64,000 nt of DNA from Eledone cirrhosa (Eukaryota). Made by a program: the position numbers and the translations under genes. Below are positions 23,001 to 38,000 of this stretch, one piece after another; within the stretch, counting starts at the first letter, position 1; each line of letters opens with the position of its first letter. Under the pieces are notes generated by a model. It saw only the letters and a program-made list of their open reading frames with translations, made no database searches and was not told where the DNA came from. Where the stretch lies: positions 10,044,001-10,108,000 of the forward strand of contig OZ024759.1 in assembly GCA_964016885.1 (NCBI GenBank), given 5' to 3'.

Positions 23001-26000
23001 TTATATGATGCCTGTGTGAGATGTGCGATGCTGAATGGTAGTGAGACATTAGCAGCAACTGGGGAGGATATGTGACAGCTGGAGAGAAATGAAGCAAGCA
23101 TGCTCCGATGGATGTGTAATGTCAATGTGTGTGAACGACCAAGCATAGACAAGTTGGGAGTGAAACTCTGTATAAGAGGGATAAACTGTAGTGTGTGGGA
23201 GAGAAGACTGCGTTTGTATGGACATGTGATGCGCATGGAGGATGACTGCTGGGTGAAGAAGTGCCAAGAAATCTCAGTAGAAGGAAGATGCAGTAGAGAA
23301 GGATCACAAAATTCATGGGTGGAGATGGTGAGAGCTGACCTCAGATTGCTGAAACTCACAGAGGAGATGATGAAGGACCGTGCCAAGTGGAGAGATGCTG
23401 TGCAAAAAAGGACCCGTCCCACCTTTGCAAGCAGGGAAAAAATCATAAGGAGGATGATGATGATGATATATATATATATAAAAATGAGGTAAATATCTCA
23501 CTGAGTACTAAGTACCCATAGAGATATATAGGGTGTCTATAATATAATTGTTGTTCTATGGTACTAATTCGAGATACCAGAACTATAAAAATTGAATAGC
23601 AGAACAAACAAACATTAAATAATCCTTTAAATAAATAAAAAAATGATTTAAATATCTACCTGTTCATAATGCTGTTACCGGCGGTTTCCGTTTACAAAAG
23701 ATTAGAAATTCGGAGAATTTGCGACGGAAAGTAAACTTCATCAGATAGCTATTTCCTTTCTATAGGACATAAGTCCCACGGTCTGCAAATATAATGCCAA
23801 CTACCAGCTCGTATGAGTTATGGCCGTTAAAGTGACCCACACGTGAACCAGCCGCTAGTGAAAGCGGGAATATTACAGACTTGTTGATGGCTTGGCTGCT
23901 AAAAAAATAGCAGTAAGCAACAACAAATTTTTTCTCTATATTATATATATATAATATATATATATATAATGTATATATATATCATATATATATGTTTAAT
24001 CATTATCATCATCATTTTACGTCTGCTTTTCCCTGCTTACAAGGGTGGGACGGGAACTGATTCTGGCTTGATTTCTACAGCTGGATGCCCTTCCTAACAC
24101 CAACCTCTTTTACAGTGAGTGCTGGGTGCTTTTTTGCCGTGGAATGATAGGGACCCCAGTCCCTATCATCTCATTTCTACAGCTGAGTAAACTGGAGCAA
24201 TGTGAAATAAAGTGTCTTGCTCAAGGAAACAACACATCACCTGGTCTGAGAATTGAACTCACAACCTTTCGATTGCAAGGCCAATGCTCTAACCACTAAG
24301 CCATGTGCCTCCACTATATATATATATATGTGTGTGTGTGTGTGTGATGTTGCTCCTGATTGCTACTGGTAACATGTAGCCTTGGTGAGGAGGGTGATTG
24401 GTTACCCTGCAGGATGAAAGACAAGATGCGGACAAAGGGCAGAAGAACTCACGAGAGTCGTCGGCCAATGTTAAAGCGTTAAATATCAGATTACTGAAGC
24501 ATAGTTGAATGGCTGGAACCAGTAAAAGAATAAAAGAATATGTGACATACCTTTTTGACAGGAACTACATAATCTACAGTAAATAGAAATAGACTTTACT
24601 AGATTGGAGTCACAAAGTACATCATCATCATCATCATTTCATTTTACGTCCGCTTTTTCCCTGCTTGCAAGGGTGGGATGGATGTTAAAGTAGTTTTAAT
24701 TAATACCAGACCACCCGTGACCCGTTGGGTCATGTTCACTTCAAAATAATTTTTAAATAATTAAAATATACACAGACATGTATATAATGTGAAATGAAAG
24801 TGGAAGGTCCATATATATATATATATATGATTTTCAAAATGTTATTTACTTCCTTAGCAATTTTTACTTGATAATTTTTACTCGATAATTTTCCTATGCT
24901 TTAATGTATGTACACTCCATATTCTTCTGAGTTTTTGGCTTGTATTGGCCGATAGTGCTTCTTATAGCTTTAATTGCCCTGATGAGTCCTTAATAGGACG
25001 AAATATTGTTGGCTAATAAAGACTTTTGATGTATTGAAGGCTTCTTTGGTTTATTTTCATAATATATATATATGTGTGTATATATATATAACAAAGGAAT
25101 TGTGGTAAGGAACCAGATGGACCATAACGCACCAGAGTACTCAATACTTAGGGGAGTAGAAACGGCTTGAGCACTGCCGGTGGGGTCATACTTTTTCCTA
25201 TATATATATATATATATCATCATTTCATTTTACGTCCGCTTTTTCCCTGCTTGCAAGGGTGGGACGGGAACTGATGCTGGCTTGATTTCTACAGCTGGAT
25301 GCCCTTCCTAACACCAACCTCATTTACAGTGAGTGCTGGGTGCTTTTTTGCCGTGGCACCTCCACGACCACTTTGCAGTGGAATGATAGGGACCCCAGCC
25401 CCTATCATCTCATTTCTACAGCTGAGTAAACTGGAGCAATGTGAAATAAAGTGTCTTGCTCAAGGAAACAACACATCACCCGGTCTGAGAATTGAACTCA
25501 CAACCTTTCGATTGCAAGCCCAATGCTCTAACCACTAAGCCATGTGCCTCCATATATATATATATAAATGTGTGTGCGTGTATACATATATATATATTTA
25601 TGTGTGTGTATATATATATATATATATATATATGTGGGGGTGTCTGTGATCTATATACACTGGTCATAGACACACACACACATATATATACACACACACA
25701 CTCACATATATATATACACAACACCACCAGCTCTCTCTCTCTCTCTCTCTTCCATTCTCCTTCTCTGTCTCCTCTCCCTCTCTCTATGTCTCTCTTTCAA
25801 TCTACTCTCTCACAACCACTGTCTCTTTCTCTCTCTTTTTCTCTCTCTCAGTCTCTCTTTGTTTATGAAGGTACCTGGAAAAACCCCATATCTTGGGAAC
25901 CTGTGCTCCGATTTACTTGAAACTTGTTTTATTCCATTTGTATCCCCATTTCAGGGTTAACTTCCTTTCAAAGTATTTCCCCATTATGCGCCCTTTTGTC

Positions 26001-35000: not shown

Positions 35001-38000
35001 AGGGAGGTAGTGGCACCAACACTAGGGAGGTAGTGGAACCAACACTAGGGAGGTAGTGGCACCAGTACTAGGGAGGTAGTGGCACCAGTACTAGGGAGGT
35101 AGTGGCACCAGTACTAGGGAGGTAGTGGCACCAGTACTAGGGAGGTAGTGGCACCAGTACTAGGGAGGTAGTGGCACCAGTACTAGGGAGGTAGTGGCAC
35201 CAGTACTAGGGAGGTAGTGGCACCAGTACTAGGGAGGTAGTGGAACCAACACTAGGGAGGTAGTGGCACCAGTACTAGGGAGGTAGTGGCACCAACACTA
35301 GGGAGGTAGTGGCACCAGTACTAGGGAGGTAGTGGCACCAGTACTAGGGAGGTAGTGGAACCAACACTAGGGAGGTAGTGGAACCAACACTAGGGAGGTA
35401 GTGGCACCAGTACTAGGGAGGTAGTGGAACCAACACTAGGGAGGTAGTGGAACCAACACTAGGGAGGTAGTGGAACCAACACTAGGGAGGTAGTGGCACC
35501 AGTACTCGGGAGGTAGTGGAACCAACACTAGGGAGGTAGTGGAACCAACACTAGGGAGGTAGTGGAACCAACACTAGGGAGGTAGTGGCACCAGTACTAG
35601 GGAGGTAGTGGCACCAACACTAGGGAAGTAGTGGCACCAGTACTAGGGAGGTAGTGGAACCAACACTAGGGAGGTAGTGGAACCAACACTAGGGAGGTAG
35701 TGGCACCAACACTAGGGAGGTAGTGGCACCAGTACTAGGGAGGTAGTGGCACCAACACTAGGGAGGTAGTGGCACCAACACTAGGGAGGTAGTGGCACCA
35801 GTACTAGGGAGGTAGTGGCACCAACACTAGGGAGGTAGTGGCACCAGTACTAGGGAGGTAGTGGCACCAGTACTAGGGAGGTAGTGGCACCAGTACTAGG
35901 GAGGTGGTGGCACTAGTACTAGGGAGGTAGTGGCACCAGTACTAGGGAGGTAGTGGCACCAGTACTAGGGAGGTAGTGGCACCAGTACTAGGGAGGTAGT
36001 GGCACCATCACTATGGAGATAGTGGCACCAACACTAGGGAGGTAGTGGCACCAACACTAGGGAGGTAGTGGCACCAACACTAGGGAGGTAGTGGAACCAA
36101 CACTAGGGAGGTAGTGGCACCAACACTAGGGAGGTAGTGGCACCAGTACTAGGGAGGTAGTGGCACCAGTACTAGGGAGGTAGTGGAACCAACACTAGGG
36201 AGGTAGTGGCACCAACACTAGGGAGGTAGTGGCACCAACACTAGGGAGGTAGTGGCACCAGTACTAGGGAGGTAGTGGAACCAACACTAGGGAGGTAGTG
36301 GCACCAGTACTAGGGAGGTAGTGGAACCAACACTAGGGAGGTAGTGGCACCAGTACTAGGGAAGTAGTGGCACCAGTACTAGGGAGGTAGTGGAACCAAC
36401 ACTAGGGAGGTGGTGGCACTAGTACTAGGGAGGTAGTGGCACCAGTACTAGGGAGGTAGTGGAACCAGTACTAGGGAGGTAGTGGCACCAGTACTAGGGA
36501 GGTAGTGGCACCATCACTATGGAGATAGTGGCACCAACACTAGGATGAGTTATCATGGCACTAGGTCGTGGTTGTCATGGCAACAGTACTAGCAGGTGGT
36601 TGTCTTGGCAGCAACACTTGAGGGCTGGTTGTCATGGCAGCATCACTAGGGGGTGGTTGTCATGGCAGTATCACTAGGAGTTGGTTGTCATCGCAACATC
36701 ACTAGGAGGTGGTGGTTGCCATGGCAACAGCACTAGGGGGGTGGTTGTTGTGTTGATTGTGTTTCTAATTGAAATGGAGAGAAATTGTAACTTACCTTCA
36801 TCTTCATTATCACAACCAGTCGCCGCAGGTTTCAGTTGAGATATAGCTTTTATTAAAGTATCTGGAGGAGTATTAAATGGCTCTTTCGGGGGTGTGTCCT
36901 TCTGGCAGAATAGAAGCACACAAAAAAAATTAATGATTTTGCATGTCCGTAGAAGGTTATTGTATGTATGTATATATATATGTGAGAAAAACCACAGACC
37001 CTCCATCTCAACTCTACTTTTGAAAAGCAGAAGAACTGCGAAACTGGTAAAGGAACCAAATAAATATAATTAAAGACTCCAGTTGCATTTTCGATTTCAT
37101 CTTTTTTCCTTACTTTCACTCGTGTAGAACACCTCAGTTATTTTTCATTTTGTAAAAAAAACCTCACTTTCTAATATATATATATATATGATCATCATCA
37201 TTTTACGTCCGCTTTTCTCTGCTTGCAAGGGTGGGACGAGAACTGATTCTGGCTTGATTTAGTGTTAGGATGCCCTTCCTAACACCAACCTCATTTACAG
37301 TGAGTGCTGGGTGCTTCCACATCCACTTTACACTGGAATGATAGGGACTGGGACCTCAGTCCCTATCATCTCATTTCTACAGATGAGTAAACTGGAGCAA
37401 TGTGAAATAAAGTGACTTGCTCAAGGACACAACACATCACCTGGTCCAACCTTTCGATTGCAAGCTCAATGCTCTAACCACTAAGTCATGTGCCTCCATA
37501 TAATATATATATATATATATATATATATATATAAATATATATATAAATATATATAAAGGTTTACATATATATATATATATATATATACATATATACATAT
37601 ACGTGTTTTGCAACGGGTTACTTTGTGGCTCAATGAAAAGTTAATAAATTAAATAATCAGAGCTATATATCATAAAACATGTCTATAGAATCACCAGATA
37701 AAATATATACCATTTCCTCTCCCAATTAGCATAATTAACCATATAAAAAATCGAATAGACCAGGCTATAAGAATAAGGCTTCTATGAAGAAATCTCCAAC
37801 AAATAACCGAAATCAGCCCTTCGCGCCAGCTGCGACGGAATATTTATCGAATATTTCGACAGCGTAATCGCCCAGATATACAGTCAATTAAACCGAATTA
37901 GGTGTAAAATAAACTAGGAGAAAAGAGAATACATTTATTTACCTCGACCATGGTTTCGTCCGCATTTTAAGATTTCCGATAACTTCGGAAACTCGAGCAC

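What the first reader, a model, noticed from the sequence alone, without database searches (positions are those of the whole stretch)
24551..36901. Phosphotyrosine docking sites built from a duplicated 'acidic exon + 23-nt DYxxP microexon' cassette
Seen: two paralogous phase 0-1 exons end in TGC-(D/E)xED(E/G) (36796-36901, 28154-28226). They share the acceptor attctgccag and similar donor flanks. Each is followed 3.6-7.2 kb later by a 23-nt phase 1-0 microexon ([16 protein letters not shown]) with similar acceptors. The Asp codon before Tyr is split by the splice junction. Known: acidic-DYxxP motifs are the Syk/ZAP70-type sites of BLNK/SLP-76. Inference: each two-exon cassette is frame-neutral (129 and 96 nt), so it can be duplicated or skipped to change the number of docking sites. 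Splicing exon 36796 directly to microexon 24573 also keeps the frame.
Basis: partly seen in the sequence, partly recalled or inferred. Interest (0 to 1): 0.7.

Follow-up and report, generated by a model that had tools for sequence, protein, structure and literature searches.

The report
Octopod BLNK adaptor multiplies tyrosine-site exons
In an octopus relative, a signalling-adaptor gene of the BLNK/SLP-76 family carries two likely phosphotyrosine docking sites made by duplicating a pair of small exons; the number of such sites differs among cephalopods, and cuttlefish sequences with and without their single site suggest that splicing can remove it, but no skipping was seen in this species.

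Summary
Both acidic exons and both 23-nt microexons are present on the minus strand. They belong to a 16-exon, 325-aa model of an octopod BLNK/SLP-76-family adaptor with a C-terminal SH2 domain; the O. sinensis orthologue is named 'B-cell linker protein-like'. A1-intron-M1 and A2-intron-M2 are one tandem duplication: donor flanks match at 26 of 28 nt, and a minisatellite family occurs only in these two introns within 264 kb. Acidic YxxP units number 1 in cuttlefish, 2 here and 3 in Octopus. Cuttlefish have forms with and without their single site in 4 of 4 pairs, and abalone isoforms drop one. Frame neutrality (7 of 13 adjacent pairs), the split Asp and the small exon size are ordinary in this gene. 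Phosphorylation and PLC-gamma binding are inferred. Verdict: a real but modest variant of known tandem exon duplication and motif splicing.

The parts
36796..36901 (-). Acidic exon A1 (106 nt, phase 0-1)
   Evidence: contig covers 36796-36903 with 0 differences
29605..29627 (-). Microexon M1 (23 nt, phase 1-0), Tyr131, YIHP
   Evidence: loose end at 36796 equals M1 plus the first 7 nt of A2
28154..28226 (-). Acidic exon A2 (73 nt, phase 0-1), paralogue of A1
   Evidence: bin depths equal 39 + 34 nt at depth 28.6
24551..24573 (-). Microexon M2 (23 nt, phase 1-0), Tyr163, YVVP
36760..36795 (-). First 36 nt of the A1 intron, conserved with the A2 intron
   Evidence: 88.9% over 36 nt
28118..28153 (-). 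First 36 nt of the A2 intron
32228..36748 (.). 28-mer then 23-mer minisatellites in the A1-M1 intron
26112..26397 (.). Homologous 28-mer then 26-mer minisatellites in the A2-M2 intron, same order and strand
   Evidence: about 74% alike; family found only in these two introns in 264 kb
44128..44213 (-). Proline-rich exon before A1 (86 nt, 1-0); counterpart of the Octopus long exons, without Tyr at the motif position
   Evidence: loose end at 36903
52887..52919 (-). 33-nt exon (1-1) with PALPP(R); its counterpart is optional in O. bimaculoides models
55233..55305 (-). 73-nt exon (0-1)
19274..19295 (-). 22-nt exon (0-1); with M2 it forms the 45-nt frame-neutral pair matching the optional cuttlefish segment
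19027..19116 (-). 90-nt exon (1-1), proline-rich
17534..17562 (-). 29-nt exon (1-0)
16681..16746 (-). SH2 exon 1 (66 nt)
10893..11048 (-). SH2 exon 2 (156 nt)
4908..5015 (-). SH2 exon 3 to the stop codon; 3' UTR inferred to at least 4668

Best explanation
The four exons encode two acidic YxxP motifs in an octopod BLNK/SLP-76-family adaptor, made by one tandem duplication of exon-intron-microexon; the motifs are likely phosphorylated by a Syk/ZAP70-type kinase and predicted to dock PLC-gamma SH2 domains, and both are probably included in the main transcript here. Shown: exon structure, splicing of A1-M1-A2, duplication, family assignment, different unit numbers among cephalopods, and two protein forms in cuttlefish. 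Inferred: because exon phases alternate 0-1/1-0 along the disordered linker, exon pairs can be duplicated or dropped without a frameshift. Lineages have repeatedly multiplied the unit (1 in cuttlefish, 2 here, 3 in Octopus), which would raise the valency of the scaffold for PLC-gamma. Where splicing changes the site number it probably removes the Tyr microexon with the next short exon (here M2 + 19274-19295), as in cuttlefish, not the acidic exon + microexon pair.
For: One 325-aa frame over 16 exons with canonical ends. Exon-only contig of run X1, depth 28.6, joins 44128-exon, A1, M1 and A2. With all 8 downstream internal exons the contig would end at 4668, where exact 30-31-nt matches to other repeat copies begin (4674, 4669); skips would put the end at 4645 or 4623. 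Duplication. Family: best PDB match BLNK SH2 2eo6 (E 0.043 for one exon; 6.5e-10 for the O. vulgaris orthologue); O. sinensis orthologue named B-cell linker protein-like; SH2 73% identical to Octopus. Unit counts and optional segments. YVVP and YIVP of chicken BLNK are described as matching the PLC-gamma2 C-terminal SH2 motif (PMC2195830, passage). The genome holds PLC-gamma tandem SH2 exons, a Tec/Btk-like SH2 and a weakly ZAP70/Syk-like SH2 piece.
Against: Only one exon-only run of one study, kept as contigs and not on record as RNA; tissue unknown. M2 inclusion is indirect. YIHP was not found as a PLC-gamma motif in any paper read. The Syk-like hit is weak (E 1e-5, ABL close behind). The Argonauta model has no acidic YxxP unit, so the sites may be dispensable, or that model misses microexons. 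The window's units are closer to each other (80) than to Octopus units (77 at most) only by a small margin, so an older duplication with later gene conversion is not excluded.
Confidence: 0.68

Rival explanations
1. Regulated tuning in this species: frame-neutral skipping (M2 + next 22-nt exon as in cuttlefish, or M1+A2, A1+M1, A2+M2) gives isoforms with one or two docking sites depending on tissue or immune state.
For: Cuttlefish-type proteins occur with and without the 16-aa Tyr segment in 4 of 4 pairs; the skipped form is on 63 Logan contigs and the included form on 8. Haliotis X3/X4 lack 45 aa holding an acidic YEEP; O. bimaculoides X3/X4 lack the acidic run before the first Tyr. All these skips keep the frame here. 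The 36-nt donor flank is more conserved than the 5' half of the exon, which may mark a splicing element.
Against: Only one loose end at the A1 donor, reading into M1; contig length fits full inclusion; no UGC in positions -20 to -3 of M1 or M2 (motif recalled).
Confidence: 0.3
2. Neutral churn: exon pairs in a fast-evolving disordered linker duplicate and are lost because phases allow it, and the number of YxxP sites has little effect on signalling.
For: 7 of 13 adjacent exon pairs are frame-neutral; other exons without Tyr have also duplicated in Octopus (11-aa unit, 66-aa unit); Argonauta lacks the unit; the commoner cuttlefish form lacks its only YxxP.
Against: The acidic run, Tyr, hydrophobic +1 and Pro +3 are kept in both window units and in the three Tyr-bearing units of each Octopus species while flanks and introns diverge.
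Confidence: 0.2
3. The motifs dock other SH2 partners (Tec/Btk, Nck, Vav, Crk) or are phosphorylated by a kinase other than Syk.
For: YxxP sites of BLNK bind Vav, BTK and PLC-gamma2 (PMC9994718, passage); a Tec/Btk-like SH2 is present; a clear Syk was not shown.
Against: Both sites have a hydrophobic residue at +1, as in the YVVP/YIVP sites tied to PLC-gamma2, not the acidic +1/+2 of YEEP-type sites.
Confidence: 0.2

Closest known systems
BLNK/SLP-65 and SLP-76 adaptors (vertebrate antigen-receptor signalling)
   Same: C-terminal SH2 closest to BLNK, proline-rich middle, acidic YxxP tyrosines (family layout: PMC2213353 and PMC9994718, passages); YVVP is the motif reported for chicken BLNK Y103.
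   Different: Two YxxP sites instead of five; no SAM domain in the cephalopod proteins scanned; each site is split over an acidic exon and a 23-nt microexon; a second family member lies on C2, so one-to-one orthology is not shown.
Octopus LOC106881179 / O. sinensis B-cell linker protein-like (XP_036368224)
   Same: Orthologue: SH2 73% identical, same N-terminus, same last DYVVP unit.
   Different: Octopus has three acidic YxxP units and an extra duplication of the long proline exon + acidic exon; this gene has two.
Tandem exon duplication with mutually exclusive splicing (PMC9741552, abstract start seen in listing)
   Same: Paralogous exons in tandem within one gene.
   Different: The unit is two exons plus an intron, and both acidic exons stand in one contig, so they add up and are not substituted.

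Membership tests
BLNK/SLP-76 adaptor family | C-terminal SH2 domain of the BLNK/SLP-76 type | tested here: met
   PF00017 on one exon, 20 bits, just under the 21-bit cut-off; best PDB hit BLNK; orthologue named BLNK-like
BLNK/SLP-76 adaptor family | Tyrosines in acidic YxxP context upstream of the SH2 | tested here: met
   Tyr131 and Tyr163
BLNK/SLP-76 adaptor family | Proline-rich central region with SH3 ligands | tested here: met
   PALPPR at 61 and further Pro runs; reading as a CIN85-type PxxxPR motif is recalled
BLNK/SLP-76 adaptor family | Phosphorylation by Syk/ZAP70 and binding of PLC-gamma, Btk, Vav | not testable with these tools
   Partners present in the genome; binding not tested
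SLP-76/CLNK subtype | N-terminal SAM domain (recalled as defining) | tested here: not met
   None in P0001-P0003, present in Haliotis P0009; the model's start matches the Octopus N-terminus; upstream DNA was not scanned for SAM
One-to-one BLNK orthologue | Groups with vertebrate BLNK apart from SLP-76/CLNK/SH2D6; N-terminal leucine zipper (recalled) | tested here: inconclusive
   Tree held only molluscan rows; second paralogue on C2 is nearer to BLNK in a PDB search; no zipper seen in the model by eye
Neural (SRRM4/eMIC) microexons | UGC close upstream of the 3' splice site (recalled) and neural-only inclusion | tested here: not met
   No TGC in -20 to -3 of M1 or M2; tissue pattern not testable
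Mutually exclusive tandem exons | Only one copy per transcript | tested here: not met
   A1, M1 and the start of A2 lie in one contig

The most novel reading that the evidence does not exclude
Cephalopods set the PLC-gamma-docking valency of a BLNK-like scaffold on two time scales: repeated two-exon duplications change it between lineages (1, 2, 3 sites), and regulated skipping of the Tyr microexon changes it within an animal, giving a splice-controlled threshold for ITAM/Syk-type signalling in hemocytes of animals without adaptive immunity.
Probability: 0.25. Interest if true: 0.6.

Novelty: new variant of a known kind. Interest (0 to 1): 0.38.

Why it matters
It is a clean, traceable case of a short linear motif gaining copies by duplication of an exon-intron-microexon unit, with a natural series of 0 to 3 sites among cephalopod proteins. 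It points to an unstudied Syk-BLNK-PLC-gamma layer in molluscs: the oyster BCR-like pathway paper read here has 0 mentions of BLNK or SLP in its main text (PMC6994640, term search). The cuttlefish pair of forms gives a ready test of whether splicing sets adaptor valency. The mechanisms themselves (tandem exon duplication, splicing of motifs in disordered linkers) are well known.

Tried and rejected
Word-based homologue search with the SH2 exon found nothing; the full HMMER scan did (17 hits). The Atlas search gave no usable hit. The last exon alone gave only two chance PDB hits. Run search: no RNA holder listed; 4 runs of one study, kind unknown; X2-X4 cover introns, X1 only exons. In one search dispersed repeats crowded out the loose ends at A2, so the A2-M2 junction was not read; M1 and M2 are too short to be laid on their own. 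The split Asp was rejected as special: 4 of 8 split codons in the gene are Asp and 6 of 8 are acidic, and two of the four are the duplicates. Microexon size was rejected as special: 6 of 14 internal exons are 33 nt or shorter. The 4-site O. sinensis X2 model was not counted as a species value, because it repeats a 66-aa unit letter for letter and O. vulgaris has three. P0036 and P0042 were left out of the cuttlefish count as they do not cover the place. A list of upstream frames for a SAM scan was not sent, since orthologue N-termini settled the start. No complex prediction: phosphotyrosine cannot be modelled there. Paper searches with no hit: BLNK+YVVP+YIHP, BLNK+oyster+Syk+hemocyte, BLNK+SLP-76+CLNK+evolution+invertebrate; searches listed no title on this gene. 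Chiu et al. 2002 is not held, so I could not check my recollection that human BLNK Y178 and Y189 lie in the same two motifs. Earlier-findings look-ups gave nothing that bears on this.
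Full report
Observation. The introns before the microexons are 7168 and 3580 nt. The window lies on contig C20 of a 3.0-Gb genome, and a DNA search with the A1 region finds only A1 and A2.

Gene. A splice-site scan and reading of the unmasked DNA, extended by 200 kb, gave 16 exons with canonical ends that form one 325-aa frame ending in an SH2 domain spread over three exons. Three 5' exons lie beyond the window (L003:5305-5349, L001:7810-7856, L001:4183-4208). 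The middle SH2 exon matches PF00017 just under the cut-off, and its best PDB match is BLNK (E 0.043). A full HMMER scan returned 17 proteins, led by O. bimaculoides LOC106881179 and an Argonauta model. The O. sinensis orthologue is named B-cell linker protein-like, and the O. vulgaris one matches BLNK at E 6.5e-10. The modelled start agrees with the Octopus N-terminus. The SH2 is 73% identical to Octopus, 57% to Argonauta and 48% to cuttlefish, and falls with octopods in a 12-row tree (support 84/84). The organism is therefore likely an octopod outside the three Octopus species compared.

Splicing. Four runs of one study hold the last exon; none is on record as RNA. X2-X4 cover introns, whereas X1 covers exons only. 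One X1 contig (1285 nt, depth 28.6) lies on 36796-36903 without differences. Its loose ends read into M1 plus 7 nt of A2 on one side and into exon 44128-44213 on the other. Depth over A2 equals exactly 39 + 34 nt at 28.6. So 44128-exon, A1, M1 and A2 are joined. No second loose end appears at the A1 donor, but contigs drop rare forms. M2 was not read directly. The contig has 830 nt after A1; with all 8 internal exons it would end at 4668, and exact 30-31-nt matches to other copies of a dispersed repeat begin at 4674 and 4669 (80 loci examined, 29 of them copies of this repeat). Skips would need an end at 4645 or 4623, well inside the shared repeat. This is indirect support that relies on my recollection of how such contigs break.

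Duplication. A1 and A2 share 26 of 28 donor-flank bases (next best 17 among 105 pairs). The units score 75 as proteins (maximum 26 in 5000 shuffles). M1 and M2 match at 34 of 53 nt, above 4524 other AG sites and the other 14 acceptors of the gene (14-24). A 28-mer and a 23/26-mer minisatellite occur in the same order and strand in both A-to-M introns and nowhere else in 264 kb. Acceptor likeness alone and the microexon donor flanks add nothing. The two window units resemble each other slightly more (80) than any Octopus unit (at most 77 and 58), which favours a duplication in this lineage but does not exclude conversion.

Relatives. Acidic YxxP units in this linker number one in cuttlefish, two here and three in O. 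bimaculoides and O. vulgaris; one O. sinensis model has four but repeats a unit letter for letter; the Argonauta model has none. In 4 of 4 cuttlefish-type pairs, including two S. pharaonis gene models, one form lacks a 16-aa segment that begins at the residue before Tyr; the short form stands on 63 Logan contigs and the long form on 8 (contigs are neither samples nor expression levels). The junction residues fit a phase 1-1 skip, and the segment aligns with M2 plus the next 22-nt exon, which is also frame-neutral here; cuttlefish exon borders were not seen. O. bimaculoides X3/X4 lack 66 aa, a Tyr-less proline exon plus an acidic exon, which keeps three Tyr but strips the acidic run from the first. 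Haliotis X3/X4 lack 45 aa with an acidic YEEP; Haliotis may belong to the other paralogue. These isoforms are database models. So site number does vary by splicing in relatives, but in none of them by removal of the acidic exon + microexon pair.

What is ordinary. Seven of 13 adjacent exon pairs in the gene are frame-neutral, 6 of 14 internal exons are 33 nt or shorter, and 4 of 8 split codons are Asp. Neither microexon has UGC just upstream (motif recalled), so a neural microexon programme is not indicated.

Mechanism. In vertebrates Syk phosphorylates five YxxP tyrosines of BLNK, which then bind Vav, BTK and PLC-gamma2 (PMC9994718 and PMC7016142, passages; layout in PMC2213353, passages). 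Chicken BLNK YVVP and YIVP are described as matching the PLC-gamma2 C-terminal SH2 motif (PMC2195830, passage); M2 gives YVVP and Octopus has YVVP, YVLP and YIVP. Among 39 SH2 matches in this genome are PLC-gamma tandem SH2 exons, a Tec/Btk-like one, a weakly ZAP70/Syk-like piece and a second BLNK-family gene. The likely working: the acidic exon end supplies kinase context, the microexon supplies Tyr and the SH2 specificity residues, and two units give two PLC-gamma docking sites. Phosphorylation, partner and tissue are inferred.

Novelty. The family and the general mechanisms are known. Ten paper searches listed nothing on this gene or its exon units; most subscription papers are outside the library and no supplements were read. 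An oyster BCR-like pathway paper does not mention BLNK or SLP (PMC6994640, term search). Verdict: observation confirmed, interpretation partly supported, new variant of a known kind, interest 0.38.

Noticed in passing
G000:C2:275400024-275400176 (L088): Second BLNK/SLP-76-family SH2 exon in this genome: 51% identical to Mercenaria P0008, 29% to the window gene, best PDB hit BLNK E 2e-5.
   Followed up: partly
window 36760-36795 and 28118-28153: The first 36 intron bases after A1 and A2 are 89% alike, more than the 5' halves of the exons: a splicing element or a conversion tract.
   Followed up: partly
L001:9646-9682, minus strand: 37-nt stretch with good splice sites between the first two coding exons; it would close the frame from the modelled start. 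The contig's 349 upstream nt fit either 310 + 39 unknown or 347 + 2 with it.
   Followed up: no
L001:7810-7856 with L003:5305-5349: A third Asp|Tyr junction near the N-terminus gives YYEDM, a YxxM motif (PI3K p85 type, recalled); Octopus has YQDM and the Argonauta model too.
   Followed up: partly
P0002 (Argonauta hians): No acidic YxxP unit, but three tandem non-acidic YIAP/YTAP motifs in a 9-aa repeat: a separate expansion of YxxP.
   Followed up: no
P0029, P0033 (O. sinensis, O. vulgaris): The 11-aa unit matching exon 52887-52919 is itself duplicated in tandem, and is optional in O. bimaculoides X2/X4.
   Followed up: no
L006:1661-1831 and L005:about 5370-5606, minus strand: Last exons of the upstream neighbour, which looks like a PAP2-type lipid phosphatase (label recalled, not scanned).
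   Followed up: no
G000:C6:17103246-17183538 (L022-L024, L033): Four SH2 exons within 80 kb, two nearly identical and on opposite strands; Csk-like by recall.
   Followed up: no
window 38352-38739, 38751-39108, 20257-20736: Long near-perfect inverted repeats (98%, 96%, 80%) in introns.
   Followed up: no
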